Part shown: piece by piece, positions 20,252 through 64,000 of the stretch
How positions within the stretch are numbered: the first letter of the stretch is position 1
Layout: each line of letters begins with the position of its first letter
Source of the DNA: Patescibacteria group bacterium
GTDB lineage: Bacteria; Patescibacteriota; Minisyncoccia; Phycocordibacterales; UBA1550
Length of the DNA: 64,000 nucleotides
NCBI GenBank assembly: GCA_038063615.1
Contig: JBBTUT010000003.1
Location: 1,352 to 65,351 of the forward strand
Direction of reading: 5' to 3'
Program-made: the position numbers and the translations under genes
The notes under the pieces: generated by a model
Seen by the model: the letters and a program-made list of their open reading frames with translations, nothing else
The model's database searches: none
What the model was told of the DNA's origin: nothing

Positions 20252-20252
20252 C

Positions 20253-21412: not shown

Positions 21413-21470
21413 TAAAATTGAATCCAAAAACTAAAATTAAAAATTTTGATGAGGCGGGGGCTGTGGTAGA

Positions 21471-22016: not shown

Positions 22017-22063
22017 TGTAACTTGGTTTGACGATATGGCGTGGTACATGGTAGTATTGTTGC

Positions 22064-22192: not shown

Positions 22193-22222
22193 GTGTCAGG
22201 TACCTTTGACTTGAATTTGAGC
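22191..22222. repeat. REP-like element aggtgtcaggtacctttgacttgaatttgagc
   Basis: Related to 24249-24290 and to the RAYT-flanking hairpins. Confidence 0.55.
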
Positions 22223-22253
22223 AGAATCTTCCCCGGCATGTTATAGTTGCTGT

Positions 22254-22743: not shown

Positions 22744-22889
22744 ATTTTGCATAATTGGGACAGTCACGATTGTTTCGTAAATTATGTGGTGTAGTTTGGG
22801 TGCAAACTCAATGCAGGTTACTTTTGTAGCATTATAGTAGTCAATTTACTCAAGAGAGGTGGCGTTTTGTAAATCTCAAAGACGCAGGA

Positions 22890-45343: not shown

Positions 45344-45347
45344 AAAT

Positions 45348-46208
45348 ATGAAAAATATGCCAAACTACTACAATAAAGTTACTGAATATTTTAACGAGAA
45401 AGCATCTAGTTATGATGAAGTTGACAACCAAAAATATTGGGTGTTGTCCGATATGTTCTTTAAAGAAATTCTACGAAGAGAACTCCCGGCACTTATTGGG
45501 GACAAAAAACATATCAACCTTTTAGATGCTGGAGCTGGCACTGGTCGCTGGACAATTTTTTTTGATGAAATATTTAAAGATCAATATGATATAACAGGCA
45601 CCCTTGTAGATATTTCAAGTAAAATGCTTGATGAGGCATCTAAAAAATTAAAGGCAAGTGGCGCAGACACCCGCTTTAAGATTAAGAACACTAATATTGA
45701 AAATCTCGAAGATTTCCCCAATAAGAATTTTGATTTAAGTTTATCTTTCTATAATGTCATAAGCTTCGTGGAAGATCCTAAACGGGCACTTACTGAAATA
45801 CATCGAGTTTTGAGTGATGATGGTGTGCACATAAGTATTGTAGCTAATAAATATCATGCATACTACTTTTCGTTCCTTACTAACCGGCTCTCATCAATAG
45901 ATTCAATAAAAAAAGACTCGAAGGTTCGTTTCAATGACCTCATGCCGGCTATCCACTGCTTTACCCCAGAAGAACTAAAAGATCTTTATCTCTCGGCTGG
46001 TTTTAAAACCTGTAGGGTTATTGGTGGCCCAAATTTTATTTATCCTGGAATGGAAGAAACTTATGTGCACGGCAGCACCCCCTCATTGCAAGAGAAGCTT
46101 GCTGAGGCTGATAATTTCCAAAAAATACTAGAAGCCGAACTTGAGTACTACAACATGCCTGATATTGTGGGAAGAGGGAATGTATTACTCGCAATTGCCA
46201 CTAAATAG
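45348..46208 (+). CDS. Class I SAM-dependent methyltransferase
   Basis: Motif I LLDAGAGTGRWT. Confidence 0.65.
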   Translation: MKNMPNYYNKVTEYFNEKASSYDEVDNQKYWVLSDMFFKEILRRELPALIGDKKHINLLDAGAGTGRWTIFFDEIFKDQYDITGTLVDISSKMLDEASKKLKASGADTRFKIKNTNIENLEDFPNKNFDLSLSFYNVISFVEDPKRALTEIHRVLSDDGVHISIVANKYHAYYFSFLTNRLSSIDSIKKDSKVRFNDLMPAIHCFTPEELKDLYLSAGFKTCRVIGGPNFIYPGMEETYVHGSTPSLQEKLAEADNFQKILEAELEYYNMPDIVGRGNVLLAIATK

Positions 46209-46218
46209 AAACATTCTT

Positions 46219-47259
46219 ATGTCTACTCTCTCACTAAAACCACACTATTTGGAAAAAGGGGATACCGTCGGGCTAATAAGCCCAGCTGCCCCCCTTGCTG
46301 GGTTGGTGCCTCACCGTACTGACCAAGGAATCAAAATGTTGGAAGAGCTTGGTTTTAAGATAAAAATTGGATTGAACGCTATGAATATAACTGGCTATAC
46401 TGCTGGCACTGCAGAAGAAAGGGCGTCAGATATAAATAACTTTTTTGCTGACCCAGAAGTAAAAGGAATTGTTTCTTTTATAGGGGGGAATCATTCGAAT
46501 CAAATTTTAGAATATCTTGATTTTGATATTATTAAAAAAAACCCGAAAGTATTTATTGGGTACTCTGATATTACTGTTCTGCATTTAGCCATATATGCAA
46601 TGACTGAGCTAACTACTTTTTATGGTCCAGCAGTTTTGACACAGTTTGCTGAAAATCCTGCAATAATGGAATATACAAAAAAATATTTTTTGAAAGCAGT
46701 TACACAAAAAAGTCCAATTGGCGTGATCGAGCAATCAGTAGAGTGGACAGATGAAACTCTAAATTGGTTCACAAAAGAAGATTTGCAAGGAGCACGCCAG
46801 ATGAAGCTTAATTCCGGATGGAGATGGCTTAAGAGTGGTACGGCTCAGGGGAAATTACTCGGTGGGTGTCTTGCCTCAATGATGCATCTTCGTGGAACAA
46901 AGTATTGGCCAGATTTTGAAAAGGCAATTTTATTTTGGGAAATCTCCGAGGGTGAGGCAGATTTTCGTTTAGGAGAGAGTGTGTCAACAATAGATGCGCA
47001 TTTAACCGATTTGGAGTTGTCTGGCGTCTTCACCTCTATTCAGGGAATGATAGTCGGTCGTCCTTTTGGATATGACTCAGGCCAAGAACAAAAATTAATA
47101 GAAAAAATTTTAGAGAGAACAAAAAAGTATTCATTCCCAATTCTTTATGGTGTTGATATCGGACACACAGACCCGATGATCACTCTTCCTATTGGGGTAA
47201 AAGTAATGATTAATTCAGACAAGAATATTTTTGAAATTTTAGAGAGTGGCGTAATGTAG
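46219..47259 (+). CDS. Peptidase S66 family (LD-carboxypeptidase LdcA / microcin C immunity MccF-like)
   Basis: GYSDITVLH nucleophile motif. C-terminal DIGHTDP catalytic His region. ORF track begins at 46141. Confidence 0.7.
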   Translation: MSTLSLKPHYLEKGDTVGLISPAAPLAGLVPHRTDQGIKMLEELGFKIKIGLNAMNITGYTAGTAEERASDINNFFADPEVKGIVSFIGGNHSNQILEYLDFDIIKKNPKVFIGYSDITVLHLAIYAMTELTTFYGPAVLTQFAENPAIMEYTKKYFLKAVTQKSPIGVIEQSVEWTDETLNWFTKEDLQGARQMKLNSGWRWLKSGTAQGKLLGGCLASMMHLRGTKYWPDFEKAILFWEISEGEADFRLGESVSTIDAHLTDLELSGVFTSIQGMIVGRPFGYDSGQEQKLIEKILERTKKYSFPILYGVDIGHTDPMITLPIGVKVMINSDKNIFEILESGVM

Positions 47260-47379
47260 AACCTCATGGTTGAATGTACCACCGGGGCACTTGACAAATT
47301 ACAAGAACTAATATACATTGTTGCTAGTTTAGTTTTTTGAAATTTCACAAAGGAAACAAACAAATAAGGAGGTGCTAAG

Positions 47380-48675
47380 ATGACACATACAATGTTTGTC
47401 CAGGCGCATTTGGGTGCTGAGTTTTCCGGGATGGCTAGAGTTTTATCCAAGAGGCATATCGGCAAGATTTTATTTTGTGGGGCACGCCTTTTGGAAGAAA
47501 ACATTCAGTTAGTATTTAGAGAGGAACACCTCGCAAACTATCGACACATCGTTAGTCTGCCGAGAGGGAGTTTGCTCAAGGTCTCTGGGAATAAAATACA
47601 TACTCGGAGCGGCACACCATCACTGGAAATAACTTCCGCAGACATTATCCATATCGTCAAAGAAAACTTACCAGATAAACAAAATTGCCTGAGTAGGTCG
47701 CTTCGATATCGTCGCCGAACGATTGATCTTATGACGAACGACACATCTTTCGTCTTTTTTAGGAGGCAATCAGAGGTCTTGATGATAATAAGGAAGTTTC
47801 TTTATGATTTGGGGTATCATGAGTTCATTACTGGCACATTGCAGGAAGTGTTTGAAGGTGGACAGTCTGTGTCTTTCGACACATACTGCAAGGCGACTGG
47901 TAAAAATGTTACTCTTAGCTTAACAAGTGAACTGAAGCTTAGGCGGTTGCTTGTCTCTGGGTTTGATCGTGTGTTTGAGATTGCTCAATCATTTCGAAAT
48001 GAAGGTTCTGACAAACTACATTCTCCTGAGTTTACTCTTTTGGAAATGTATGCTCGCAGTTCTGGACATTTAGAAATGATGGAATTGCTTGAGTCAATGG
48101 TTTCAGAAATTGCTGGGAAAATACAAGATGATTCCGATGTCCTGTTTACTCCAGAAAGATACCGTGCTCCGTTTCAGCGTATTCTTTTTCGAGAGGTATT
48201 CGAAAATCATTTTGGTGATTTTAGCAGATTTAACATTCAGTATTTCTCAGAATTAATGCCAGAGATGTTCAATGTGGCAATGTCTCATTTCACTTGGACA
48301 ATGAAGCTCATTGAAAAAGTGATTCTTCCAACTATTCGTGGACCAGCATTTCTTGTTGAGTTACCAGTTGGAATGTCTCCATTCGTTAAAAATTCAAGCG
48401 ATGGTGTAACCACACAGAGAGCATTCTTTGTCGCTGATGGATTATTTGTCGCCGATATTTATTCTGACGAGAATAATCCAGACATAATACAAAAGAATCT
48501 CGAACAGCAATCAATGGCGGTTGGGAATGTCTTAAATAAAGATTATGTTGAGATATTATCGCTTGGGCTTGGCGAGTCAGCCGGTCTAGGCATGGGCTTA
48601 AATCGTTTATCGATGCTCTTTTTGGGCACTTTGCCTCGCGATATTAAAGAAACTATATTGTACCCAATTCTCTAA
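47380..48675 (+). CDS. Lysyl-tRNA synthetase-like paralog (class IIb, divergent)
   Basis: OB-fold-like N-terminus. Motif 2 FRNEGSDKLHSPEFTLLEMY. Degenerate motif 3 GLGMGLNRLSMLF (Asn in place of the conserved Asp). Confidence 0.6.
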   Translation: MTHTMFVQAHLGAEFSGMARVLSKRHIGKILFCGARLLEENIQLVFREEHLANYRHIVSLPRGSLLKVSGNKIHTRSGTPSLEITSADIIHIVKENLPDKQNCLSRSLRYRRRTIDLMTNDTSFVFFRRQSEVLMIIRKFLYDLGYHEFITGTLQEVFEGGQSVSFDTYCKATGKNVTLSLTSELKLRRLLVSGFDRVFEIAQSFRNEGSDKLHSPEFTLLEMYARSSGHLEMMELLESMVSEIAGKIQDDSDVLFTPERYRAPFQRILFREVFENHFGDFSRFNIQYFSELMPEMFNVAMSHFTWTMKLIEKVILPTIRGPAFLVELPVGMSPFVKNSSDGVTTQRAFFVADGLFVADIYSDENNPDIIQKNLEQQSMAVGNVLNKDYVEILSLGLGESAGLGMGLNRLSMLFLGTLPRDIKETILYPIL

Positions 48676-48689
48676 AAAGGAGGTCTATC

Positions 48690-50090
48690 ATGAACCGTTA
48701 CCCCGATTCTTTTTACAAGAGTCACTCTATTCTTCAAGTAATATCTGAGCATGAAGATTTAGTTAAGGATGTAACCGAAGTCACTACTGCAGGGAGAGTG
48801 CTTGCGCGACGAGCTTTTGGTAAAATCATATTCCTCGATATCCAGGATTTTTCTTCAAAGATCCAGTGCTATGCGAGGGAGGATATCTTAGGTTCGACTA
48901 AACAGGTATTTATTGCGAAGCAACTCAAAGTTGGAGATGTTGTTGGCGTGCGTGGCACAGCGTTCCTCCCAAAATCAGGAGAAAAGTCTATTAAGCTTAC
49001 TGATATATTTTTGCTTTCGGAAACAACTCTTCCGTTCCCAGAAAAATATCACAGGCTAGTAGACCAAGAGGCCCGTTATCGCCAGCGTTATCTTGATCTC
49101 ATTATGAATTCTGATACGCGGAAGATTTTCCAGACACGGTTCTTGTTGTTGAAAGAACTGCGCCGTTTCCTTGATGGTCGTGGCTTTATTGAGGTAGAAA
49201 CACCGATATTCCAACATACCCCTTGCGGTGCATCGGCGAACCCATTTCGGACACGGCACGACGCAAAAGGAATTGATCTTTATCTTCGTATCTCACCAGA
49301 GACATATCTTAAGCAGTTGATAGTAGCTGGGATAGATAGGGTGTATGAGATTGGTAAAAACTTTCGAAACGAGGGGGTTGACCCGACACATCTTCAAGAG
49401 TTTACGATGCTCGAGTTCTATGTCTCCTATTGGAGCTATCGTGAGAATATCGTGTTTGTTCAAGAGCTGTTGCGAGAAATCATTCAGAGGAGCACTGGCG
49501 GGCTGTCTATCCCATGCAACGAGATAACACTCGATTTTGGCGCAGAATGGAGCCATGTGAAATATCGAGATGTTTTACTTTCTGGAACGGGGATAGATGT
49601 TCTTGAGATGCGGAATACTACGGAGCTTCTGGCTGAAATGAAGCGGTGTGGTGTTGAAATTGAGCATGAGAAAGTGGAGTCGCTGGGTTCGATGGTTGAT
49701 AAGCTGTACAAGCGTTTTGTACGACCAAATCTTGTTCAGCCAACAATCTTAATGCAGCATCCAGCATATTTACTGCCTCTTGCTCGCCCAAGTGATGAAG
49801 ACCCTCGTGTTGCGGACTCATTTCAGGTACTGGTTAACGGGTGGGAGATAGTCAAAGCGTATTCGGAACTGGCTGACCCGGAGCTACAACGGTCACTCCT
49901 CGAAGGTCAATCTCAGTCTCGTAAAGACGGCGACAAAGAAGCCATGTTTTTAGATGAAGATTTTCTTCTTTCTTTAAAGTATGGCATGCCACCTGTCTCT
50001 GGGGTTGGAATTGGTATTGATCGGCTTCTCGCGATTCTTACTAATCAACGAAACCTCAATGAAGTTGTTTTGTTCCCTTTGATGAAGTAG
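48690..50090 (+). CDS. lysS: Lysyl-tRNA synthetase (class IIb), canonical motifs
   Basis: Motif 1 region, motif 2 FRNEGVDPTHLQEFTMLEFY, motif 3 GVGIGIDRLLAIL. N-terminal anticodon-binding OB fold. Confidence 0.75.
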   Translation: MNRYPDSFYKSHSILQVISEHEDLVKDVTEVTTAGRVLARRAFGKIIFLDIQDFSSKIQCYAREDILGSTKQVFIAKQLKVGDVVGVRGTAFLPKSGEKSIKLTDIFLLSETTLPFPEKYHRLVDQEARYRQRYLDLIMNSDTRKIFQTRFLLLKELRRFLDGRGFIEVETPIFQHTPCGASANPFRTRHDAKGIDLYLRISPETYLKQLIVAGIDRVYEIGKNFRNEGVDPTHLQEFTMLEFYVSYWSYRENIVFVQELLREIIQRSTGGLSIPCNEITLDFGAEWSHVKYRDVLLSGTGIDVLEMRNTTELLAEMKRCGVEIEHEKVESLGSMVDKLYKRFVRPNLVQPTILMQHPAYLLPLARPSDEDPRVADSFQVLVNGWEIVKAYSELADPELQRSLLEGQSQSRKDGDKEAMFLDEDFLLSLKYGMPPVSGVGIGIDRLLAILTNQRNLNEVVLFPLMK

Positions 50091-51276: not shown

Positions 51277-53061
51277 ATGATACTTAACCTTGATATCAAA
51301 AATACATTAATATTGATTATCGCGGTAATCAATATTACATACGGCGCAATCATTTATTTAAAAGATAAAAAGAGCGCTACCAGTAGCTGGTTTTTCCTTT
51401 TGGCCGTCTCGGTGGGATTATGGGGAGTAAGTATGTTTTTATTTCGATCTGCTCAAGAAGAGTATTTGGCCAGTATTTTTTCAAGAATTTTGTATTTCTC
51501 AGCAGCGGTTATCCCCATCGTGTTTATTTATTTTTCAGCTGTCTTCCCAAGTGTTTCATCTGTATTTGGTTTTCGACAAAAATATATTCTGCCAATCCCA
51601 TTTTTTATAATAGCTTTATTCTCCTTAACTCCTGATTATCTGGTAAAGAGTACGCAGATTCTAGTAGGTGAAGAAACACACATTTTATTTAATAATTTTT
51701 ATCATACACTTTATGTTTTTTACATAAATATTTTTTTCGCATACGGATATTTTTTATTGGTTAAAAAATATTTTGTAAGCAGATTTCAAGATGTTGTTTT
51801 AAGTAAGCAAATTATTTATATTATCGCAGGAACATTTATTTCGACAATGATTGGTGTTTTTACAAACCTGCTTGGACCATATATGGGTATATTTAAGTTT
51901 AATTGGGTTGGTCAAATTGGAAATGTCGTTATGATTTCAGCTATCTCATATGCAATAGCTAAACATCAGTTGTTTAACATCAAACTCATCCTCGTTGAAT
52001 TGGCGATTTTGTTGCTTAATATGTTTCTTTTGTTCAATGTGTTTACTTCGCATGCGACGGTGGACTTTGTGCTCAATATCTCGGTGTCATTGTTTGTCTT
52101 TATCTTCAGCATCATCCTTATGCGCGGTATTTACAAGGATATTCGGGACAGAGAGCGGATCGAGGGATTGGCGAAAGAGATGGCGGTGACGAACGAGAAG
52201 CTCCATATACTGGAACAACAAAAGACGGAGTTTGTGTCCATCGCTTCGCACCAGCTCCGCACTCCGCTGACAGTCATCAAGGGCTATGCGTCGATGATCC
52301 TCGAGGGGACTTTTGGCACCATTGCCACTCCGGTGCACGATGCTATGGACAAGCTGTACAAGTCGAGCGAGAGGATCGTGGCACTGGTGGAGGACCTGCT
52401 GACGGTGTCGCGACTGGAGCAGGGGAGAGGCGCGCTTCATTTTGAGACGGTGGACCTCGTGAGAGTCATTCAAATGGTGACGATGGAAATGGATGAAGAT
52501 ATCAAGAGGTCAAATCTCGACTTCTCGTTTACGGTGGAAGAGGGGGGAGAATTCCCCGTCGCAATCGACGAGAAAAAGTTCAAGCAAGTGGTGAAGCACA
52601 TCCTCGACAATGCCATCGAGTACACAAACGCCCCCGGCAGAGTGCGTATCGCTATCAATGAAGACAACATCGCCGACAAAATCCGTCTCACGGTTTCTGA
52701 TACCGGGGTGGGGATGACCGCGGAGCAGATCCAGAGTATTTTTGAGAGGTTTAATTTGAAGATTAAAGAGCAGACGACAAACGACGGACAACAGACGACG
52801 GGGGAAGGGGAAAGGAAAAAGGAAGGAAAGTTTTTATGGCCGAGCCACGAATCAGCTGATTCGAAGTTGAAAGTGGAAAGTGGAATACAAGAATCAAAAT
52901 CAGAAGAACCAGAGACAGAGGCGCCAAACCAGCGCACGCCCGGTATCGGGCTCTACATTGCGCAGGAAATTATCGAAGCCCACCACGGCACCCTGCACAT
53001 CGAGTCCGCCGGCATGAACGAAGGCACGACGGTGATCGTGGAGTTGCCGAGGGCTAAATAA
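51277..53061 (+). CDS. Membrane sensor histidine kinase (multi-TM sensor, HisKA, HATPase_c with low-complexity insertion)
   Basis: H-box SIASHQLRTPLTVIKGY. G1 DTGVGM and G2 GIGLYIA are separated by an about 45-aa Gly/Glu/Lys-rich insert. Confidence 0.8.
   Translation: MILNLDIKNTLILIIAVINITYGAIIYLKDKKSATSSWFFLLAVSVGLWGVSMFLFRSAQEEYLASIFSRILYFSAAVIPIVFIYFSAVFPSVSSVFGFRQKYILPIPFFIIALFSLTPDYLVKSTQILVGEETHILFNNFYHTLYVFYINIFFAYGYFLLVKKYFVSRFQDVVLSKQIIYIIAGTFISTMIGVFTNLLGPYMGIFKFNWVGQIGNVVMISAISYAIAKHQLFNIKLILVELAILLLNMFLLFNVFTSHATVDFVLNISVSLFVFIFSIILMRGIYKDIRDRERIEGLAKEMAVTNEKLHILEQQKTEFVSIASHQLRTPLTVIKGYASMILEGTFGTIATPVHDAMDKLYKSSERIVALVEDLLTVSRLEQGRGALHFETVDLVRVIQMVTMEMDEDIKRSNLDFSFTVEEGGEFPVAIDEKKFKQVVKHILDNAIEYTNAPGRVRIAINEDNIADKIRLTVSDTGVGMTAEQIQSIFERFNLKIKEQTTNDGQQTTGEGERKKEGKFLWPSHESADSKLKVESGIQESKSEEPETEAPNQRTPGIGLYIAQEIIEAHHGTLHIESAGMNEGTTVIVELPRAK
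52801..52885. repeat. 85-nt element (ggggaagggg...aagtttttatggccgagc...aatcagctgattcgaagt.gaaagt) inserted in-frame in the kinase ATP-lid; second copy at 56216-56300
   Basis: Shared 19-nt and 24-nt blocks between the two loci, read directly. Confidence 0.7.
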
Positions 53062-54556: not shown

Positions 54557-56215
54557 ATGTCCGTTACGGTACTTGCAATTGTGCAAAATATTTCGATTGA
54601 GGGATGGGGTGTCTCGGCTGCGGGACTGCTCGCGGTATTTTTTTCGAGCATTGTCTTTTGGCAGGATCCTGCGAAGCGCAGTAACAGAACTTTTTTATTT
54701 TTTGGGGCGGCTGTCAGCGTGTGGGGCATTGCGTTCGCGGTCTTCACGGGGACATACGGCACTCCCGCTATCCATGGCGCGCTGTCGATGATTTATCTTG
54801 TCGCGCCACTCGTGCCTCTCTCGCTATTCCTTTTTTTGTATGATTTTTCAATAAAAGGAAGCCCATTTTCATTTTGGAAATTTGCTGGAATTTTCACTCC
54901 TTATTTGTGTCTTGCGGGATTGCTTTCTATTCCCAATTTCATCACCGGTTACGACGAAACGCTGGATGGTGGCTTGGGGGGCAGGGTTTTTGGAAAAGGA
55001 TACCCGATCTATAGCTTCTACATGCTCGCATTCCTTTCTGCGGGGGTCATTGTCCTCATTAAAAAATATCGCGAGAGTGCGGGGATATTCAAATTTGCAA
55101 TCAGAAATATTCTGCTTGCGTTTTTCGCGATGAGCGTTCTTGCTACCACGGTGATGCTCCTTTTTCCTCTTTTTTGGGTAGGGTACGACTTGTTTTGGGT
55201 CGGGCTCCTCGGCGTAATCATCTTTGAGTTTGTCATCGCACTCATCCTTATCAAATATAATTTTTTGAGCTTGAAGGTCATTGCGACCGAGTTTTTCATT
55301 TCAATCATTGCTCTGGTTTTGGTTGTGGAGCTTTTCCTCGCGACTTCGACGCTCGACTTGCTCATCAAGGCGGGTATCGCGATGCTCATTATTTTTTCAA
55401 GTTCATTTCTCGTCGGAAGCATCAAGCGCGAGATCCAGTCCAGCGACAAAATCGCGCGCCTCTTGGGCGACCTCGACTATATGCACAAACAGCTCAAGGT
55501 GCTCGACAAGAAAAAGTCTGATTTCCTCTCTATCGCTTCACACCACTTGCGCGATCCGCTGACCGCTATCAGGGGGTATGCCTCGATGCTCACCGAGGGT
55601 TCCTTTGGTGAGCTCTCGGTATCCTTGAGAGAAGCTGTTGAAAAAATCCTCGATTCGAGCGAACGCCTCATCACGATGATCTCTGATTTTATGGATATTT
55701 CGCGCATCGAGAGCGGGGATATGAATTATAAGTTTGTTGATGTCGATATGAAGAAGCTGGTGCTCGACCTTGCTGATGAAATGAAGTTCAACGCCGAGCG
55801 CGCACATCTTGGGTTTAATGTTGCGGTAGGCAAGGACTTGTTGAAAGATGAATCGTTCGTGACGGTGGGAGATGCGGGCAAGTTGCGTCAAGTGGTTTCA
55901 AATATCATTGATAACTCGATCAAATACACTCCGCAGGGTGAACTGTCGCTCCTGCTTTCCAAGAGTCCGGACCGAAAGAAAATACTTTTCAGTGTCTCGG
56001 ATACGGGTATCGGCATGAATGCAAGCACGCTCGAAAAGATTTTCAGAAAATTCAGCCGTGCCGATGGGGTAAGCAAAGTCTATACCGAGGGCACCGGTCT
56101 GGGTCTCTATGTGGCAAAGGAGATCATCAAAAAACACGAAGGGCGCATCTGGGCGGAGTCCAAAGGCGAGGGTATGGGTTCGAGTTTCTATATGGAGTTG
56201 GAGGCGAAGGTGTAG
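54557..56215 (+). CDS. Membrane sensor histidine kinase (second copy)
   Basis: H-box SIASHHLRDPLTAIRGY. N, G1 (DTGIGM) and G2 (GTGLGLYVA) boxes. GGCGTGGTATACT box directly upstream; likely leaderless. Confidence 0.8.
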   Translation: MSVTVLAIVQNISIEGWGVSAAGLLAVFFSSIVFWQDPAKRSNRTFLFFGAAVSVWGIAFAVFTGTYGTPAIHGALSMIYLVAPLVPLSLFLFLYDFSIKGSPFSFWKFAGIFTPYLCLAGLLSIPNFITGYDETLDGGLGGRVFGKGYPIYSFYMLAFLSAGVIVLIKKYRESAGIFKFAIRNILLAFFAMSVLATTVMLLFPLFWVGYDLFWVGLLGVIIFEFVIALILIKYNFLSLKVIATEFFISIIALVLVVELFLATSTLDLLIKAGIAMLIIFSSSFLVGSIKREIQSSDKIARLLGDLDYMHKQLKVLDKKKSDFLSIASHHLRDPLTAIRGYASMLTEGSFGELSVSLREAVEKILDSSERLITMISDFMDISRIESGDMNYKFVDVDMKKLVLDLADEMKFNAERAHLGFNVAVGKDLLKDESFVTVGDAGKLRQVVSNIIDNSIKYTPQGELSLLLSKSPDRKKILFSVSDTGIGMNASTLEKIFRKFSRADGVSKVYTEGTGLGLYVAKEIIKKHEGRIWAESKGEGMGSSFYMELEAKV

Positions 56216-58263: not shown

Positions 58264-58314
58264 TAGAATGTTGAATATCGAATATCGAATATTGAATATG
58301 GAATGGGGAATGGG
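58264..58314. repeat. Heptamer repeat block gaatgttgaatatcgaatatcgaatattgaatatggaatggggaatggg
   Basis: Same unit family as 4779-4912 and 6127-6210. Confidence 0.85.
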
Positions 58315-58348
58315 TACGCTAACTTTATTAACTTTACAAACTAAATTC

Positions 58349-59686
58349 ATGGAACGCACATACATAAAAGATTTAAAGGAGCACATAGGTACGGAAGTTG
58401 TTGTCGCTGGCTGGGTGGATATTCGCCGCGACCACGGCAAGCTCATTTTTCTCGACCTCCGCGATATGTCCGGCAAGGTGCAGATGGTAGCGCTCCCGAA
58501 CCATCCCGAGGCTGTAGCTCTCGCCAGCACGGTGCGTTCCGAATGGGTCATCGAGGTGCGCGGCATGGTGAATGCGCGCCCGCCGAAGATGGTGAAAGAG
58601 GGTGTGTTGAATGGCGAGCTTGAGATCGAGATGCTTGAGGTCAAAGTGCTTTGCAAAGCGCAGGAGCTTCCTTTTGAGCTCGGCACAGAACTTAATCTCG
58701 ATACCTATCTCGACAATCTTCCGCTAACGCTTCGCGAAGAAAAAGCGCATGCGGTGTTCAAGGTGCAGGCAATGATTATTCACGCATTCCGTAATTTTCT
58801 CGTTGGCGAGGGCTTCACCGAGTTTCAAGCACCGAAGCTCATTGGTGAGGATGCCGAGGGCGGCGCAAACTCGTTTAATGTGGAATATTTTGGTCATACC
58901 GCGCACCTTGCGCAGAGTCCACAGCTCTACAAACAAATAATGGTCGGCGTGTTTGAGCGCGTGTTTACGACGGGCAATGTATACCGCGCAGAAAAGCACA
59001 GCACAACGCGACATATCAATGAATACACGAGCCTCGACATAGAGATGGGATTCATCAAAGACCATACTGATGTGATGAATATGGAAAATCGAATTCTTGC
59101 CTATATCGTGAAAGAGCTCAAAGAAAAATGCTCTGATGAATTTGCACTTTTTGGTGCCACAATACCCGAAGTGCCGGAGAAAATTCCCGCAATGAAACTC
59201 CGTGAAGCGCAGGAAATCATCAAGAAAGAAACAGGGGAGGACTGCACAAAAGAGCTCGACCTCGAGCCGGCACACGAGCGCTTCCTTTGCGAATATGCGA
59301 AGAAAGAATTCAATTCAGATTTTATTTTTATCACGCATTTCCCAATTTCAAAGCGACCATTCTATACTTATGAGGATGAAAATGACATTGGCTATGCAAA
59401 GGGCGGAGACCTGCTTTTCCGCGGTGTTGAGATCACTACGCTCGCACAACGCATCCACGACTACGACACTCTCGTCGCGTCGATGAAGACAAAAGGCCTC
59501 GACCCTGAAAAATTCCGCTTCTACCTGCAAGCCTTCAAGTATGGTATGCCTCCGCATGGCGGCTTTGGTCTCGGCCTCGAGCGCCTCACCGCAAAGCTCC
59601 TCGGCCTCGAAAATGTGAAAGAAGCGACTTTGTTCCCCCGCGACCTGAATCGGATTGATACCTTGTTGTCGACTAAATTGGGATAA
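58349..59686 (+). CDS. aspS: Aspartyl-tRNA synthetase, archaeal/eukaryotic type (probably non-discriminating)
   Basis: EYFGHTAHLAQSPQLYKQ, YRAEKHSTTRHINEY, FRFYLQAFKYGMPPHGGFGLGLERL, LFPRD match archaeal-type AspRS. ORF-track start at 58268 reads through the repeat block. Confidence 0.8.
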   Translation: MERTYIKDLKEHIGTEVVVAGWVDIRRDHGKLIFLDLRDMSGKVQMVALPNHPEAVALASTVRSEWVIEVRGMVNARPPKMVKEGVLNGELEIEMLEVKVLCKAQELPFELGTELNLDTYLDNLPLTLREEKAHAVFKVQAMIIHAFRNFLVGEGFTEFQAPKLIGEDAEGGANSFNVEYFGHTAHLAQSPQLYKQIMVGVFERVFTTGNVYRAEKHSTTRHINEYTSLDIEMGFIKDHTDVMNMENRILAYIVKELKEKCSDEFALFGATIPEVPEKIPAMKLREAQEIIKKETGEDCTKELDLEPAHERFLCEYAKKEFNSDFIFITHFPISKRPFYTYEDENDIGYAKGGDLLFRGVEITTLAQRIHDYDTLVASMKTKGLDPEKFRFYLQAFKYGMPPHGGFGLGLERLTAKLLGLENVKEATLFPRDLNRIDTLLSTKLG

Positions 59687-59708: not shown

Positions 59709-60254
59709 ATGTTAAACAAAATTAATAAAAACCAAGGAATCCCAGCTCTTTTTGCACTGATCTTGTCTGGCGCAACTTTCTTTTTCTCCGATCAAAAATG
59801 GTGGGTTCTAGTTATTATTATGATAACTATTTTGCTTATGGTCAGTATTCATTTGTATGAAAAAAGGAAGCCAAAAAATTTCAAAGACACACAAAAAGCA
59901 TCTAGAATTCTCTTTGTTGATGACAAGGAGTGTCAAATTGTAACAAATCTACGGCGGAATAATTTTGATGTTAGAAAAATCGATGACATTTTATCACCGG
60001 CGACGGACATTGATGTGCAGTGGGCGAATATAATTTTTGTTGATTATAAAGATGTTGGTAAAAAACTTTGTGGCAAAAAAGAAGGGCTTGGGCTCATCAG
60101 TGAATTGAAGCGTGTTTATGGAGACAAAAAACGCTATATTATTTATTCATCAGTGCAGGATTTTGACGGGCTGGTCGAATTTCCTTATATTAGGAAAAAT
60201 GCCTCTTATGATGAGTTTATTTCATTAATTACCGCAGAAATAACCAAATTATGA
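59709..60254 (+). CDS. Hypothetical membrane protein with REC-like cytoplasmic domain
   Basis: Two TM helices, then ILFVDDKECQIV... resembling a receiver-domain start. Confidence 0.3.
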   Translation: MLNKINKNQGIPALFALILSGATFFFSDQKWWVLVIIMITILLMVSIHLYEKRKPKNFKDTQKASRILFVDDKECQIVTNLRRNNFDVRKIDDILSPATDIDVQWANIIFVDYKDVGKKLCGKKEGLGLISELKRVYGDKKRYIIYSSVQDFDGLVEFPYIRKNASYDEFISLITAEITKL

Positions 60255-61252
60255 TTTGCTTGAAGGTTACAGTTCCAACCAGCGGTGTGGTAGTGAATTC
60301 ATTTCCAGATGACTTTACTGTGCCAAAACAAGAAAGTCAAAAGAACAAAAAGTCTCGTTATTTTCGTAAAAATACCTCATTCGGTATTTTGGAATTTTTG
60401 TTGATTGAAGAGGAGAGAGTCGCTAATAGCAATAAGGTCTTCAATGCTTTTGTCGTTGCAATCGAAACGGCGTTAGAAAAATCTATCTCCCATAATTTAG
60501 AAAAAGCTCGGGAGATGGCAGATGATTACCTCCATAATATAATAAAGATCCACGGGAATCAGAAAAGTATAGTAGAACGATGTGTCTTTGGGGCGGAAGG
60601 ACAGGAAAGTTATACCGATTTTGTTTCAGTGGTTAAAGAAAATGTGCAAAGAAACCCTGATATGTTCGCTGAAGATATTTGCGCTCTTTCGAAGGAGATA
60701 AGATTGGTAGATTACCACATCGGTGGCTACAATCTCCTTCGTGACGCATCTTCAAGAGTTACGATTACAGATAACCATAACCTCAAGAAGTTTTTACTCG
60801 GACTTTCTCATTTGTTTTTCGAGTTTTTTAGAAAGAACAATGTGGTGGTGAGTCTTCATGATATTAGCGAAAGTTTTCTTTGCTCCTTTGAATATGAGAC
60901 ATTTAATATTGCAATGCATAGCTTTCTTGAAAACACGGTTAAGTACTCAAAACCCTATTCTAGAATAATAGTTTATACACGGACTGAGTCAGGTGAGTTA
61001 ATATTTCAAATGGAAAGTGTTCGCATTGAGAAAGATGAAATTATTAAGATCTTTGAAAGAGGGGTTTTTGGTCGCTGTGTGCCGGAAGATTTGAGAGGAA
61101 GTGGTATTGGTATGTATCAATTAAAAAAAGCTTTGGATAGGAGTAGGATATCAGTTACTGTTTCTCCGGATCATTCCCAAAGCTCGGAAGTGAACGGAGT
61201 TAGATATACAAAAAATACTTTTTCTTTTCGTTTTCCAAAATACTCGAACTAA
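60251..61252 (+). CDS. Histidine-kinase-like ATPase domain protein (non-canonical)
   Basis: C-terminal HATPase_c-like region (LENTVKYSKP...GSGIGMYQLK). Confidence 0.4.
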   Translation: MICLKVTVPTSGVVVNSFPDDFTVPKQESQKNKKSRYFRKNTSFGILEFLLIEEERVANSNKVFNAFVVAIETALEKSISHNLEKAREMADDYLHNIIKIHGNQKSIVERCVFGAEGQESYTDFVSVVKENVQRNPDMFAEDICALSKEIRLVDYHIGGYNLLRDASSRVTITDNHNLKKFLLGLSHLFFEFFRKNNVVVSLHDISESFLCSFEYETFNIAMHSFLENTVKYSKPYSRIIVYTRTESGELIFQMESVRIEKDEIIKIFERGVFGRCVPEDLRGSGIGMYQLKKALDRSRISVTVSPDHSQSSEVNGVRYTKNTFSFRFPKYSN

Positions 61253-61323
61253 GTGCTATTTTATAAGTACTGTTGGTATGTTTTGTATTAAAAAACGATT
61301 GGCGGTATACTGAGCTTGTTAAT

Positions 61324-62985
61324 ATGTCCAAATTAAAAGATACCCCCATTGTTGATAGACCCCGAGAAAAATTCTTGGAAAAGGGTGCCGACGCGCTTAC
61401 CAAGAGCGAGCTTTTGGCCATTCTTCTCGGAAGTGGTATCAAGGGAACGAATGTCAAAAAACTTTCCGAGCAAATTCTCAGAAAATTCGGGAAAAAGTTT
61501 TTTGATGTGACGGTTGACGATCTTTGCCAGGTTAACGGAATAGGGCAGGCGAAAGCTTTGCAAATAGTTTCCGCGATTTCTCTGACAAAAAGAATTTATG
61601 AGGAACAAAAACCTCAAGAAAATCTGGTGCTTTCCGCAAACGATGCCGCTTTGCTTGTTTCCGATTTAAAAAATAAAAAACAGGAGCATCTCGTTTGTTT
61701 GTATTTAAACGCTCGGAATGTTTTGCTTCAAAAAGAAACTGTTTCAATCGGAACGCTCGACAGAAGCATCGTGCATCCGAGAGAAATTTTTGCTCCCGGA
61801 TTGAAATTGCACGCAGCGGGGGTAATTTTGATTCACAACCATCCGTCCGGCGATCCGACTCCAAGCAATCAAGACAAAGAGATTGCTTGGAAAGTCGTGG
61901 AAGCTGGGAAATTGATGGGCGTTAATGTTATTGATTTTATTATTGTTGCGGAAAACGGCATTCACAGTGTTTTGGGTGAAATAAAGAAAAAAAAGGATTT
62001 TTCAAGTGTCGAGTATGTCGCGGACGGCGAGCAAGCGTCTTTGTTCGACATGTTGGTGGATGAAAGATCTTTTATGAGCTACAAAGTGTCAGCACTGCAA
62101 AAAGCGACGAGCAAAAATGACAAAATAAAAGTTATAGATCTGTTCGCGGGGATAGGGGGCTTTCATTTGGCATTTCACAATGCTGGGGCGGAGTGCGTGT
62201 TTGCTTCCGAGTGGGATACTCCGGCGCGTAAAACTTACCAGCATAATCTTTACAACATATCCCCGGAACTTTTTGACTCGGGAAGTTTTGTCGGCGATAT
62301 TACAAAAGTCAATCCAAAAGATATACCCGATTTCAATATTTTATGCGCAGGGTTCCCGTGCCAGCCGTTTTCGCAAGCGGGTTTTAAAAAGGGGTTCAAC
62401 GAAACAAAAGGGACGCTTTTCTTTGATATCGTAAACATAATCAACGAGAAAAAACCCCAAGCGTTTTTCTTAGAAAATGTTCGGCATTTGTTTAAGCACG
62501 ATAACGGTCGCACATTTGAAACAATAAAAAAAATTATTGAAGAAGATTTGGGGTATTCTTTTTTCTATAAAATAATTAAGGCTTCCGACTATGGATTACC
62601 GCAACACAGGCCACGCCTTTTTATGGTTGGGTTCAAAGATAAAAGTATAGATTTTAAGTTTCCGGATCCAGTACCGTTGAAATATACGCTTTCGGATGTT
62701 TTTGGTGGAAAATGCGAAAAAGATGTCGGCTTTACTCTCCGCGTAGGTGGTCGTGGCAGTAGAATTGAGGATAGGCACAACTGGGATGCGTATATTGTTG
62801 ACGGAAAGGCCAGAAGGCTCGGTTCGAAAGAGGGAATAAAGATGCAAGGATTTCCCAACGATTTCGAGTTCCCTGTTACAGAGGTTCAAGCTATGAAGCA
62901 ACTGGGAAATTCTGTTGCGGTTCCCGCCATACAAATGGTGGCGGAGGAAATCGTCAAACAACTTAAAAAACATGGAAAACAATAA
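61324..62985 (+). CDS. RadC-like JAB/MPN domain fused to DNA (cytosine-5)-methyltransferase
   Basis: N-terminus has HhH and JAMM motif (HNHPSGDPTPSNQD). C-terminus has C5-MTase motifs I (DLFAGIGGF), IV (GFPCQPFS), ENV and QLGNSVAVP. One continuous ORF. Confidence 0.7.
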   Translation: MSKLKDTPIVDRPREKFLEKGADALTKSELLAILLGSGIKGTNVKKLSEQILRKFGKKFFDVTVDDLCQVNGIGQAKALQIVSAISLTKRIYEEQKPQENLVLSANDAALLVSDLKNKKQEHLVCLYLNARNVLLQKETVSIGTLDRSIVHPREIFAPGLKLHAAGVILIHNHPSGDPTPSNQDKEIAWKVVEAGKLMGVNVIDFIIVAENGIHSVLGEIKKKKDFSSVEYVADGEQASLFDMLVDERSFMSYKVSALQKATSKNDKIKVIDLFAGIGGFHLAFHNAGAECVFASEWDTPARKTYQHNLYNISPELFDSGSFVGDITKVNPKDIPDFNILCAGFPCQPFSQAGFKKGFNETKGTLFFDIVNIINEKKPQAFFLENVRHLFKHDNGRTFETIKKIIEEDLGYSFFYKIIKASDYGLPQHRPRLFMVGFKDKSIDFKFPDPVPLKYTLSDVFGGKCEKDVGFTLRVGGRGSRIEDRHNWDAYIVDGKARRLGSKEGIKMQGFPNDFEFPVTEVQAMKQLGNSVAVPAIQMVAEEIVKQLKKHGKQ

Positions 62986-64000
62986 TACAAAAGCAAACAA
63001 GGGCGAGTGGTCCGAATTCTATGCTTTCCTGAAAATTCTGGAGCAAAAACAACTTCCGGCCGCTGATAAAAATCTTAACCCGATAGCAGGGAAATTTTTC
63101 GTATTTCATAAAGTTATCAGAGAAGAAAAGGATGAGCCGATAAAAATATACGATATTTCCGCTGGGACGGAGATACTTATTACGAGTGAAGACGGTTCCG
63201 TATTAAAGAAAGTTTCAGACGAAAATCTAAACTCAAAAATCTTTAATATTTTTGAGAAAATAAGAAACGGACAGAGCGCATCCTTTGAGATTTCTGAAGC
63301 AAAAGCCGTCATGGAAGAATTTTTGTGCACAAAAGTTAAAGCAAGCAATGATAAAAAAGCCGATATCGTTGCGGTCATTTATGATAGAATCTCCGAAACG
63401 ATGCCGATGTTAGGGTTTTCGGTAAAGTCCATGATTGGCGGTGCATCAACACTACTCAACGCGGGGAAGACGACGAATTTTGTTTTTAAAGTTGGAGGGT
63501 TTAGCGGGGAAATTGGAGAAGTAAACGGTATCGACAGTAAGTCAAAAATCAGAGATCGCCTGTCCGCAATTATTGAGAAAGGTGGGGTTTTGTCGTTTGA
63601 TCATGTTTTGAGTGAGGCGTTTGCCTCGAATCTGAAAAACATAGATACCGCTTTTCCGAAATTTGTTGCGCAAATGCTACTCGATTTTTTTCTCGGAAAA
63701 GAGTCAACGGTTAGCGGGCTTATAAATGAACTGACAAAAAATAGCGAATTCAACAAAGAGTTCGGGCTTTCTCTTTCCGGTTATGAACTGAAGTTTAAAA
63801 ACTTTCTTGATGCGATTGCGCTCGGTATGGTGCCAAGCGTGGAATGGGACGGGTTTACGAAGGCGCACGGCGGATATATTGTAGTAAAAGAAAACGGCGA
63901 TGTCCTCTGTTACCACCTCTACAATAGAGACGAATTTCGCTCCTACCTGTATGAAAATACAAAATTTGAAAGTGCAAGCAGTACGAGACATGATTATGGA
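62972..64000 (+). CDS. Hypothetical protein, 3'-partial (runs off window); candidate type II restriction endonuclease partner of the C5-MTase
   Basis: Open frame with no stop to the window end. Start overlaps the MTase stop by 14 nt. Functional call rests on position only. Confidence 0.3.
   Translation, partial: MENNNTKANKGEWSEFYAFLKILEQKQLPAADKNLNPIAGKFFVFHKVIREEKDEPIKIYDISAGTEILITSEDGSVLKKVSDENLNSKIFNIFEKIRNGQSASFEISEAKAVMEEFLCTKVKASNDKKADIVAVIYDRISETMPMLGFSVKSMIGGASTLLNAGKTTNFVFKVGGFSGEIGEVNGIDSKSKIRDRLSAIIEKGGVLSFDHVLSEAFASNLKNIDTAFPKFVAQMLLDFFLGKESTVSGLINELTKNSEFNKEFGLSLSGYELKFKNFLDAIALGMVPSVEWDGFTKAHGGYIVVKENGDVLCYHLYNRDEFRSYLYENTKFESASSTRHDYG

What the first reader, a model, noticed from the sequence alone, without database searches (positions are those of the whole stretch)
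61324..64000. RadC-like JAB domain fused to a C5-cytosine DNA methyltransferase, followed by an overlapping unknown ORF (candidate restriction endonuclease)
It is one uninterrupted 554-aa ORF. A JAMM-motif RadC domain (HNHPSGDPTPSNQD) is joined by a roughly 40-aa linker to a complete Dcm-type methyltransferase (FAGIGG, PCQ, ENV). The next ORF overlaps by 14 nt and runs off the window. It is in an AT-rich block.
Basis: seen in the sequence. Interest (0 to 1): 0.6.

Follow-up and report, generated by a model that had tools for sequence, protein, structure and literature searches.

The report
RadC-fused methylase in a restriction cassette
A groundwater ultra-small (CPR) bacterium carries a mobile restriction-modification cassette whose protective DNA methylase is permanently fused to RadC, a widespread protein of still unknown function; the same fusion recurs with three unrelated methylase classes, which gives a new handle on what RadC does.

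Summary
Window 61324-62985 is one 553-aa ORF: a full-length RadC (HhH + JAB, intact JAMM motif), a roughly 50-aa linker, and a complete C5 cytosine methyltransferase. The next ORF overlaps it by 14 nt and is an HpaII-family restriction endonuclease. A 100% identical longer contig shows a Vsr mismatch endonuclease follows.

The fusion is not an artefact. There are 111 full-length homologues (50-97% identity) that keep the frame, and the cassette sits in different chromosomal neighbourhoods.

New points:
- The closest RadC relatives are fused to C5, Dam-class (D12) and N4/N6 methylases, each next to a different nuclease. One unfused RadC is the first, overlapping gene of a BpuJI-like R-M operon. 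RadC is therefore a recurrent partner of R-M methylases.
- The otherwise variable, predicted-disordered linker holds a conserved EYVA(E/D)GxQxSLFD motif. It fits the bacterial sliding-clamp-binding consensus QL(S/D)LF. A similar QxxLF occurs in the N-terminal tails of unfused relatives and of classical M.HpaII.

Best reading: an ordinary HpaII-type R-M plus Vsr cassette with a selected RadC/linker accessory module. That module probably delivers the methylase to nascent or incoming DNA. This role is inferred, not shown. It is a new variant of a known kind, of moderate interest.

The parts
61324..62985 (+). Fusion gene (553 aa plus stop): RadC, linker and C5 DNA methyltransferase. It is the M subunit of the R-M cassette.
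   Evidence: The ORF is and the domains. There are 111 full-length homologues with the same architecture.
61336..61557 (+). RadC N-terminal helix-hairpin-helix region (UPF0758_N, aa 5-78).
   Evidence: Pfam PF20582 matches at E 3e-22. G72, I73, G74, K77 and A78 are invariant in 80 homologues. AF2 models it as helical with pLDDT 75-92.
61648..61971 (+). RadC JAB domain (aa 109-216). The JAMM motif is H171-x-H173-x7-S181-x2-D184 (nt 61834-61875), with E154 upstream.
   Evidence: Pfam PF04002 matches at E 3e-36. PDB 2QLC, a RadC homologue, matches at E 3e-24. H171, N172, H173, P174, S175, G176, P180, S181 and D184 are invariant, and E154 is at least 90% conserved.
61972..62124 (+). Interdomain linker (aa 217-267). 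It is variable and predicted disordered.
   Evidence: Mean identity to the window protein is 0.40, against 0.70-0.75 in the domains. AF2 pLDDT is below 50 for aa 233-265.
62011..62061 (+). Conserved short linear motif in the linker: E-Y-V-A-D-G-E-Q-A-S-L-F-D-M-L-V-D (aa 230-246). It contains Q237-x-x-L240-F241, a candidate sliding-clamp-binding motif.
   Evidence: Y231, A233, F241 and D242 are invariant. V232, G235, Q237, S239, L240 and D246 are at least 90% conserved in 80 homologues. The same motif occurs in RadC-D12 fusions. Q-x-x-L-F is found in 8 of 11 extended RadCs against 1 of 130 stand-alone RadCs. The consensus QL(D/S)LF is taken from PMC6511837.
62125..62982 (+). C5 cytosine DNA methyltransferase domain (aa 268-553). 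It has motifs I (FAGIGG), IV (PCQ, catalytic C346), VI (ENV), VIII (Q427-x-R429-x-R431) and X (GNSV).
   Evidence: Pfam PF00145 matches at E 2e-80 and TIGR00675 at 277 bits. M.HhaI structures match at E 6e-64. The invariant columns are listed. AF2 pLDDT is mostly 85-96.
62972..64000 (+). HpaII-family type II restriction endonuclease gene: the first 343 of 364 codons, cut by the window end. It overlaps the M gene by 14 nt.
   Evidence: Pfam PF09561 matches at E 2e-97. The full-length gene in L001, which is 100% identical to the window over 12,677 nt, matches at E 5e-107 over profile positions 1-359 of 359. PADLOC REase_II matches at E 1e-80. In L001 it is followed by Vsr (L001 12789-13160, which would be window 64112-64483).

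Best explanation
This is a real, conserved gene fusion. It forms the methyltransferase subunit of a mobile type II restriction-modification cassette: [RadC-C5 MTase] - [HpaII-family endonuclease] - [Vsr].

Shown or strongly supported:
- The M domain has every catalytic motif of a C5 methylase.
- The R gene is a full-length HpaII-family nuclease, translationally coupled to M by a 14-nt overlap.
- A Vsr T:G mismatch endonuclease follows. This is the usual companion of 5mC systems.
- The cassette occurs in unrelated chromosomal neighbourhoods in many CPR/Patescibacteria.

The cassette therefore methylates its site (predicted CCGG), cuts unmethylated DNA, and repairs deamination damage at the methylated cytosine.

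Inferred:
- The N-terminal RadC (HhH DNA-binding region plus catalytically intact JAB domain) and the conserved linker motif form an accessory module kept by selection.
- The same RadC subfamily is fused to C5, Dam-class and N4/N6 methylases, and is also found as a separate first gene of an R-M operon. Its role must therefore be generic to DNA methylation in R-M systems, not specific to 5mC chemistry.
- The most likely role (about 0.35) is delivery of the methylase to DNA that is transiently unprotected, meaning nascent DNA behind the fork or incoming or recombining DNA. Delivery would use HhH-DNA binding and a Q-x-S-L-F linker motif that would dock on the beta sliding clamp.
- The substrate of the JAB active site remains unknown.
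For: Identity of the parts.

The fusion is real.
- The identical protein is on at least 9 contigs from several assemblies.
- There are 111 full-length homologues at 50-97% identity.
- 17 GTDB species representatives carry the fusion, each followed by an HpaII-family R gene.

Mobility: the same cassette lies next to different genes in L005, L006, L008 and the window.

Selection on RadC.
- Identity is 0.70-0.73 in RadC against 0.75 in the MTase and 0.40 in the linker.
- The JAMM residues are invariant.

Generality.
- P0114 has RadC 68% identical but its MTase only 45% identical, and is followed by an NgoFVII-type nuclease plus Vsr.
- The nearest RadC relatives are fused to D12 MTases (P0121, P0122, P0127, P0134, P0137), to an N6_N4 MTase (P0130, followed by an EcoRII-C nuclease, in an Armatimonadota MAG), and to other C5 MTases (P0126 with MTaX1; P0133 in Campylobacterales).
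- The unfused RadC P0284 overlaps the first gene of the operon M.C5 - BpuJI-like R - M.C5 - Vsr.
- In NJ trees the fused RadCs form two clades, each mixing methylase classes.

Linker motif.
- It is invariant or near-invariant inside a variable linker that is predicted disordered.
- It is shared by C5 and D12 fusions and absent from 129 of 130 stand-alone RadCs.
- Three unfused sister MTases (Rickettsiales MAGs) begin with M-x-Q-x-x-Q-x-(D/E)-L-F.
- The classical M.HpaII family has a conserved A-x-Q-Y-x-L-F in a disordered N-terminal tail.
- It fits the clamp-binding consensus QL(D/S)LF (PMC6511837).
Against: - No experiment or interaction prediction links the motif to the clamp. Such short motifs are degenerate.
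- The motif is flanked by further conserved residues (Y-V-A-E/D-G upstream, D-x-x-x-D downstream). That is more than a minimal clamp-binding peptide needs.
- BLAST does not align the window motif with the M.HpaII motif, because the spacing to motif I differs (30 aa against 15 aa). Common origin therefore rests on pattern similarity alone.
- Two unfused MTases nested in the fused clade (L031, L033) have lost both RadC and the motif, so neither is essential.
- The unfused RadC operon (L067) has no such motif.
- CCGG specificity is predicted from family membership only. The MTase domain is only 38% identical to M.HpaII and has a shorter target-recognition region.
- I could not determine whether these genomes also carry a separate housekeeping radC. 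None is present in the 64-kb window.
Confidence: 0.6

Rival explanations
1. Very-short-patch repair helper. RadC would be a nuclease that works with Vsr to process T:G mismatches created by deamination of the 5-methylcytosine that this methylase makes.
For: - Vsr follows R in the window's contig and in many related cassettes.
- In the classical M.HpaII family about 30 of the 120 best clusters carry Vsr fused at the same N-terminal position, with a similar linker motif. This is positional equivalence.
- A nuclease role for RadC has been proposed from domain contexts (PMC3239186).
Against: - The same RadC subfamily is fused to N6-adenine (D12) and N4/N6 methylases, whose products do not deaminate to T:G mismatches.
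- 10 of the 17 GTDB fused loci show no Vsr within the fetched flank.
- RadC and Vsr co-occur rather than replacing each other.
Confidence: 0.12
2. Self-directed protease. The JAB metallopeptidase would remove methylase molecules trapped covalently on DNA (C5 enzymes form a covalent intermediate), or would cut the fusion at the linker to release the methylase.
For: - Characterised JAB domains are metallopeptidases.
- The JAMM residues are invariant.
- The linker has a conserved (E/D)-G just before the Q.
Against: - Fusions to adenine and N4 methylases, which form no covalent adduct, carry the same RadC and motif.
- The motif persists in unfused MTases that have no RadC to cut it.
- RadC is argued to lack the ubiquitin-tail groove of the peptidase-type JABs (PMC5512222).
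Confidence: 0.1
3. Restriction control or anti-restriction. RadC would restrain or remove the cognate (or a foreign) nuclease at unprotected sites, as RadC/ArdB modules of mobile elements are thought to counter restriction. This would ease establishment of the cassette in a new host.
For: - RadC is fused to ArdC and paired with ArdB in mobile elements (PMC3239186; PMC12458937).
- The cassette is mobile.
- No C-protein regulator is present.
Against: - The nucleases next to the fusions belong to unrelated families (HpaII, NgoFVII, EcoRII-C, MTaX1, BpuJI). A specific protein target is therefore unlikely.
- There is no direct evidence.
Confidence: 0.1
4. Functionally neutral fusion, or a DNA-binding autoregulator only. 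RadC would have been captured by chance, or would serve merely as an N-terminal DNA-binding or repressor arm, as in M.SsoII or M.EcoRII.
For: - Closely related MTases work without RadC (about 30 unfused species loci).
- RadC was lost twice inside the fused clade.
- The HhH region binds DNA.
Against: - Fusion or recombination with at least five C5 lineages and two other methylase classes is repeated.
- There is an operonic, unfused version.
- The JAB catalytic residues are invariant over 50% sequence divergence.
Confidence: 0.07
5. Sequencing or assembly artefact: a frameshift or chimera joins two separate genes.
For: None was found.
Against: - The identical ORF appears in several independent assemblies.
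- 111 diverged full-length homologues keep one frame.
- The junction is a conserved linker carrying its own motif.
Confidence: 0.01

Closest known systems
HpaII restriction-modification system (M.HpaII / R.HpaII with adjacent Vsr homologue), Haemophilus parainfluenzae
   Same: - The nuclease is a full-length member of the RE_HpaII family.
- The methylase is a C5 enzyme with all motifs present.
- A Vsr gene accompanies the system.
- M.HpaII-family proteins also carry a conserved Q-Y-x-L-F in a disordered N-terminal tail.
   Different: - The methylase domain is only 38% identical to M.HpaII, and its target-recognition region is about 45 aa shorter.
- It carries a 225-aa RadC at its N-terminus.
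- The hosts are CPR bacteria.
- CCGG specificity has not been verified.
Stand-alone RadC / YicR (UPF0758; structure 2QLC)
   Same: - The architecture is the same full-length HhH + JAB.
- It scores above the NCBIfam equivalog cut-off.
- The JAMM motif is intact.
   Different: - It is not a free protein of about 220 aa. It is covalently joined to a methylase.
- It belongs to a distinct subfamily. Fused RadCs are at least 54% identical to one another in the main clade, whereas the nearest complete stand-alone RadCs are at most 49% identical (P0124, at 59%, is a 213-aa protein that ends about 43 aa after the HxH motif and may be a truncated fusion).
- It has a C-terminal motif that 129 of 130 stand-alone RadCs lack.
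Described RadC fusions in mobile elements (RadC-ArdC, RadC-DnaG primase, RadC-DinG helicase; RadC in polyvalent proteins; RadC/ArdB modules)
   Same: RadC is joined or adjacent to proteins that act on DNA in restriction-related conflicts (PMC3239186, PMC5512222, PMC12458937).
   Different: - The partner here is the methylase of a complete R-M system. That is the defence side, not the anti-defence side.
- None of the papers I could search describes a RadC-methyltransferase fusion.
Vsr-M.HpaII fusions (Bacteroidota) and DNMT1-PCNA tethering (eukaryotes)
   Same: - Vsr-M fusions place a repair nuclease at the same N-terminal position, with a similar VAE..Q..(L/I)FD linker.
- DNMT1 uses a PIP box to ride the clamp. 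This is a functional analogy for the proposed Q-x-S-L-F clamp tether (PIP and CBM consensus from PMC6511837; the DNMT1-PCNA link is from my own knowledge).
   Different: - RadC is unrelated to Vsr, and here both are present.
- Clamp binding by any bacterial R-M methylase is unproven. I found no report of it.
DpnII system with DpnA (competence-induced ssDNA methylase)
   Same: - The idea is shared: an R-M system carries an extra device to methylate incoming or transiently unprotected DNA.
- radC is cited as implicated in DNA competence (citing Redfield 2005 and Attaiech 2008).
- One RadC-D12 fusion is followed by a second D12 methylase, as in DpnII-type loci.
   Different: - The link is by analogy only.
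- No evidence for ssDNA methylation or competence regulation was found here.

Membership tests
C5 cytosine DNA methyltransferase (Dcm type, PF00145 / TIGR00675) | Family profile score above the curated cut-off | tested here: met
   PF00145 scores 271 bits (cut-off 22). TIGR00675 scores 277 bits (cut-off 100.65).
C5 cytosine DNA methyltransferase (Dcm type, PF00145 / TIGR00675) | Conserved motifs I (FxGxG), IV (PCQ with catalytic Cys), VI (ENV), VIII (QxRxR) and X (GNSV) | tested here: met
   All five motifs are present: FAGIGG at aa 274-279, P345-C346-Q347, E384-N385-V386, Q427/R429/R431, and G528-N529-S530-V531. All are invariant or at least 90% conserved in 80 homologues.
C5 cytosine DNA methyltransferase (Dcm type, PF00145 / TIGR00675) | Methylates C5 of cytosine in a defined site | not testable with these tools
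   This needs an enzyme assay or methylome data.
RadC / UPF0758 (PF20582 + PF04002; NF000642) | N-terminal HhH region followed by a JAB domain, scoring above the equivalog cut-off | tested here: met
   NF000642 scores 219 bits (cut-off 180) over aa 14-216. PF20582 matches at E 3e-22 and PF04002 at E 3e-36.
RadC / UPF0758 (PF20582 + PF04002; NF000642) | JAMM metal-binding motif E...HxHx7Sx2D | tested here: met
   E154, H171, H173, S181 and D184 are present. All are invariant except E154, which is at least 90% conserved.
RadC / UPF0758 (PF20582 + PF04002; NF000642) | Free-standing protein of about 220 aa in a housekeeping context | tested here: not met
   It is fused to a methylase inside an R-M cassette. 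The nearest housekeeping-context RadCs are about 45% identical.
HpaII-type type II R-M system (CCGG) | Endonuclease belongs to the RE_HpaII family over its full length | tested here: met
   PF09561 matches at E 5e-107 over profile positions 1-359 of 359 in the identical contig L001.
HpaII-type type II R-M system (CCGG) | Methylase is a close relative of M.HpaII | tested here: inconclusive
   It is only 38% identical to P0294, which is 98% identical to the M.HpaII sequence I recalled from memory. The target-recognition region is shorter.
HpaII-type type II R-M system (CCGG) | Recognition of CCGG | tested here: inconclusive
   - CCGG is not depleted in the window: 153 sites against 167 +/- 12 expected.
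- It is absent or strongly depleted in several genomes with related unfused M plus HpaII-family R: L032 0/19, L034 0/11, L053 0/15.
- No direct test is possible with these tools.
HpaII-type type II R-M system (CCGG) | Separate M and R genes, adjacent and co-oriented | tested here: met
   M and R overlap by 14 nt on the same strand. The same order is seen in all 17 fused GTDB loci.
Beta-sliding-clamp-binding proteins (CBM-bearing) | Short motif matching QL(S/D)LF in a flexible region | tested here: met
   The motif is Q237-A-S-L-F241. Q, S and L are at least 90% conserved and F is invariant. It lies in a segment with pLDDT below 50. The consensus is from PMC6511837.
Beta-sliding-clamp-binding proteins (CBM-bearing) | Physical binding to the DnaN hydrophobic cleft | not testable with these tools
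   No complex prediction or binding assay is available here.

The most novel reading that the evidence does not exclude
A dedicated RadC subfamily is a general accessory factor of restriction-modification methyltransferases (C5, Dam-class and N4/N6), found either fused or operonic. The conserved Q-x-S-L-F element between RadC and the methylase, also present in classical M.HpaII tails, would be a beta-clamp-binding motif that couples protective methylation, and RadC's unknown catalytic activity, to the replication fork. This would be a bacterial counterpart of DNMT1-PCNA. If so, R-M systems would be the first setting in which RadC's biochemical function can be assayed.
Probability: 0.3. Interest if true: 0.75.

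Novelty: new variant of a known kind. Interest (0 to 1): 0.55.

Why it matters
RadC is present across most bacterial lineages, yet its function has been unresolved for decades. [quoted passage not shown]

Finding that one RadC subfamily is repeatedly welded to, or co-transcribed with, the methylases of unrelated R-M systems gives a concrete and testable setting. A small cassette can be moved into E. coli with point mutants in the JAMM site.

The conserved Q-x-x-L-F element in the tails of HpaII-type methylases raises a separate question. Do bacterial R-M methylases ride the sliding clamp, as eukaryotic DNMT1 rides PCNA? If so, that would explain how cells keep newly replicated DNA safe from their own nucleases.

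The cassette also documents horizontal spread of a defence module among CPR/Patescibacteria.

If none of the accessory ideas holds, what remains is an ordinary type II R-M system with an unusual domain architecture.

Tried and rejected
- **Artefact or frameshift.** Rejected because of independent assemblies and 111 in-frame homologues.
- **RadC merely adjacent in relatives.** In about 30 species with unfused close MTase relatives, no RadC lies within 6 kb. The fusion is therefore not a trivial read-through of a conserved gene pair.
- **C5-specific explanations** (DNA-protein crosslink self-repair, VSP repair). Both were weakened when the nearest RadC relatives turned out to be fused to D12 and N6_N4 methylases.
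- **Linker motif as a JAB self-cleavage site, or as a docking helix for RadC or for the methylase.** Weakened for three reasons. The motif persists without RadC. It occurs with unrelated methylase folds. AF2 does not pack it against either domain.
- **Second radC in the window.** None was found. Whole genomes could not be searched.
- **Promoter and terminator scan around the cassette.** Counts were no higher than in shuffles.
- **Literature.** Six searches, combining RadC with methyltransferase fusion, DNA-protein crosslinks, R-M, leading regions, competence in Patescibacteria, Vsr and REBASE, found no description of RadC-methylase fusions. Two further searches found no report of a clamp-binding R-M methylase.
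- **Solved structures.** None exists for the HpaII nuclease family.
- **ACGT avoidance.** I looked for an enzyme in the window that could explain it and found none.
Full report
**1. The observation.**

Window 61273..62985 (+) is one open frame. Starting at the ATG at 61324 it encodes 553 aa, and database homologues align from that first residue.
- Pfam finds UPF0758_N at aa 5-78, the RadC JAB domain at aa 109-216 and a C5 DNA methylase from aa 268.
- NCBIfam scores the N-terminal half above the RadC equivalog cut-off (219 against 180 bits). It scores the C-terminal half as dcm.
- The next ORF starts at 62972, 14 nt before the stop of the fusion gene, and runs off the window.
- The block is moderately AT-rich relative to the tRNA-synthetase genes just upstream.

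**2. What the neighbour is, and what lies beyond the window.**

The downstream ORF is an HpaII-family restriction endonuclease (PF09561, E 2e-97). The exact fusion protein is on record on at least 9 contigs from Hainich groundwater assemblies. One of these, L001, is 100% identical to the window over 12,677 nt and extends it. In L001:
- The nuclease is complete at 364 aa, with an E 5e-107 match over the whole profile.
- It is followed by a 123-aa Vsr T:G mismatch endonuclease.
- Ordinary chromosomal genes come next (scpA, scpB, ftsW, murG).

The unit is therefore [RadC-M][R][Vsr].

**3. The fusion is real, conserved and mobile.**
- Of the 120 best protein clusters, 118 have both RadC and DNA_methylase domains. 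111 are full length (530-600 aa) at 50-97% identity. Sources name them Parcubacteria, Moranbacteria, Beckwithbacteria, Gracilibacteria and Kerfeldbacteria.
- Seventeen GTDB species representatives carry the fusion, and every one is followed by an HpaII-family nuclease. Seven also have Vsr in the fetched flank. Some of these short contigs carry non-CPR labels, which I could not verify.
- The cassette sits beside different genes in different genomes: trmD/Fic and an OLD nuclease in L005, secA in L006, sortase and a CBASS-like pair in L008. It therefore moves as a unit.
- Across 111 homologues the RadC half is as conserved as the methylase half (0.70-0.73 against 0.75 identity to the window protein). 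The linker is not (0.40).
- The JAMM residues H171, H173, S181 and D184 are invariant and E154 is nearly so. The catalytic Cys and the other methylase motifs are also invariant.
- AlphaFold2 folds both halves confidently, with no confident packing between them (pTM 0.52).

**4. RadC is a recurrent partner of R-M methylases, not only of this one.**
- A more distant fused protein, P0114, has a RadC half 68% identical but a methylase half only 45% identical. It is followed by an NgoFVII-type nuclease plus Vsr.
- An exhaustive search with the RadC half alone, followed by Pfam scans, shows what its closest relatives are fused to:
  - other C5 methylases (P0125, P0126, P0133);
  - Dam-class D12 adenine methylases (P0121, P0122, P0127, P0134, P0137);
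  - an N6_N4 methylase (P0130).
- Their neighbours are an MTaX1 protein, a second D12 methylase and an EcoRII-C nuclease.
- P0130 and P0133 come from Armatimonadota and Campylobacterales MAGs, so the phenomenon is not confined to CPR.
- One "stand-alone" relative, P0284 (45% identical), is the first gene of an operon, overlapping the next gene. The operon is RadC - M.C5 - BpuJI-like nuclease - M.C5 (- Vsr).
- Two other stand-alone relatives sit in housekeeping-like contexts.
- In rough NJ trees the fused RadCs form two clades, each mixing methylase classes.
- On the methylase tree the HpaII-type fusions form one main clade with two secondary losses. Other fused lineages lie elsewhere.
- The RadC module has therefore been recombined onto several methylases.
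- About 30 species carry closely related unfused methylases with no RadC within 6 kb.

**5. A conserved motif in the linker.**
- Inside the variable linker, aa 230-246 (EYVADGEQASLFDMLVD, nt 62011-62061) stand out. Y231, A233, F241 and D242 are invariant. V232, G235, Q237, S239, L240 and D246 are at least 90% conserved.
- AlphaFold2 gives this region pLDDT below 50, with only a one-turn helix. That is the signature of a short linear motif that binds something in trans.
- The same Y-V-(A/S)-(D/E)-G-x-Q-x-(S/T)-L-F-D is present in the RadC-D12 fusions.
- Q-x-x-L-F is found in 8 of 11 extended RadCs but in only 1 of 130 stand-alone RadCs.
- Three unfused sister methylases from Rickettsiales MAGs begin with M-(R/K)-Q-x-x-Q-x-(D/E)-L-F.
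- The classical M.HpaII family has a variable N-terminal tail with conserved A-x-Q-Y-x-L-F. I searched with a sequence recalled from memory, which proved 98% identical to a real protein, P0294. In the alignment Q16 is at least 90% conserved and F20 is invariant. The tail is again predicted disordered.
- Vsr-M.HpaII fusions carry K-V-A-E-E-A-L-Q-Y-G-(L/I)-F-D at the junction.
- The pattern fits the bacterial clamp-binding consensus QL(D/S)LF, including S or D/E at position 3 (PMC6511837).
- The motif occurs with RadC and without it, and with unrelated methylase folds and unrelated nucleases. Its partner should therefore be a host factor common to all, and the beta clamp is the obvious candidate. 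This is inference.
- I found no report of a clamp-binding R-M methylase.

**6. How it most likely works.**

Shown or strongly supported: a type II R-M cassette. The methylase protects the host's sites and the translationally coupled HpaII-family nuclease cuts unmodified DNA. Vsr limits C-to-T mutation at the methylated cytosine.

The specificity is predicted to be CCGG.
- The window keeps a normal number of CCGG sites (153 against 167 +/- 12), so efficient methylation is needed.
- Several genomes with related unfused systems avoid CCGG entirely.

Inferred: RadC plus the linker is an accessory module under selection, and its role is generic to DNA methylation. My preferred reading (about 0.35) is delivery of the methylase to nascent or incoming DNA through HhH-DNA contacts and a clamp tether.

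This agrees with two things known about RadC. It is implicated in DNA competence. It occurs in anti-restriction modules of mobile elements.

The JAB active site is clearly maintained, but its substrate is unknown.

**7. Rivals.**
- VSP-repair helper and crosslink or self-cleavage protease: both are weakened by the adenine and N4 methylase fusions.
- Restriction control or anti-restriction: the partner nucleases are unrelated to one another.
- Neutral fusion or autoregulator: contradicted by repeated fusion and by the invariant catalytic residues.
- Artefact: excluded.

**8. Comparison and novelty.**

The parts are all members of known families (see the membership table). The system is an HpaII-family R-M with Vsr. 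The methylase is a distinct subfamily, 38% identical to M.HpaII.

Described RadC fusions involve ArdC, DnaG and DinG helicases and polyvalent proteins. I found no description of RadC-methyltransferase fusions, although databases hold many under the names "DNA repair protein RadC" or "DNA (cytosine-5)-methyltransferase 1".

I rate it a new variant of a known kind, with interest 0.55. The R-M cassette itself is ordinary. The recurrent RadC association and the Q-x-x-L-F element are unexpected and make an old question (what RadC does) testable.

Noticed in passing
window 1-64000 (whole window) and L001: The tetranucleotide ACGT is completely absent. There are 0 occurrences in 64 kb against 187 +/- 11 expected from dinucleotide shuffles, and 0 in 73 kb including the extension. 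GGCC is also halved (63 against 141). Most related loci from other genomes have normal ACGT counts. No ACGT-specific enzyme was identified in the window.
   Followed up: partly
window 59709-60254 and 60251-61252 (+): The two overlapping ORFs directly upstream of the fusion gene match the PADLOC candidate defence system PDC-M43 (A: E 7e-19; B: E 5e-39). With the R-M cassette they form a small AT-rich defence island inserted after aspS. They are absent next to the cassette in other genomes, so they are a separate unit.
   Followed up: partly
window 18141-24182: A second AT-rich island holds a Fic protein (18141-19202), an EcoRI-family adenine methylase (19295-20251), a GmrSD_N + HNH nuclease immediately after it (20253-21344), and a PRiA4_ORF3-like protein on the minus strand (22890-24182). 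A methylase paired with a DUF262/HNH nuclease may be an unusual R-M or type IV arrangement.
   Followed up: no
P0325, P0333, P0335, P0355, P0396 and about 25 other clusters: In the classical M.HpaII family, many Bacteroidota proteins (Empedobacter, Dysgonomonas) are Vsr-M.HpaII fusions of about 560 aa. Vsr sits at the N-terminus and the junction carries a conserved VAEEALQYG(L/I)FD linker.
   Followed up: partly
L067 5001-9115 and L068 5001-9539: This operon encodes RadC (unfused, overlapping the next gene by 17 nt), a C5 methylase, a BpuJI_N + NOV_C nuclease and a second C5 methylase. In L068 a Vsr follows. In L067 it lies next to a serine recombinase, so it is on a mobile element.
   Followed up: partly
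L032, L034, L053, L056, L058 (loci with unfused HpaII-type R-M): CCGG is absent or strongly depleted in about 8-13 kb of these genomes (0/19, 0/11, 0/15, 6/27 and 3/14 observed/expected). The window's genome is not depleted. Hosts of related systems therefore differ in how far they have purged the site.
   Followed up: no
window 44222-50090 and 58268-59686: Four class II (Asp/Asn/Lys-type, PF00152) tRNA-synthetase-like genes lie within 16 kb. One (44222-45343) lacks the anticodon-binding domain. Two 7TM-HisKA sensor kinases (51277-53061 and 54557-56215) lie between them.
   Followed up: no
L008 9156-10702 and L009 3249-4795: In a Moranbacteria MAG the RadC-M/R/Vsr cassette is immediately followed by a CD-NTase-like gene and a Cap15-like effector (CBASS-type pair). 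This is another case of the cassette sitting in a defence island.
   Followed up: no
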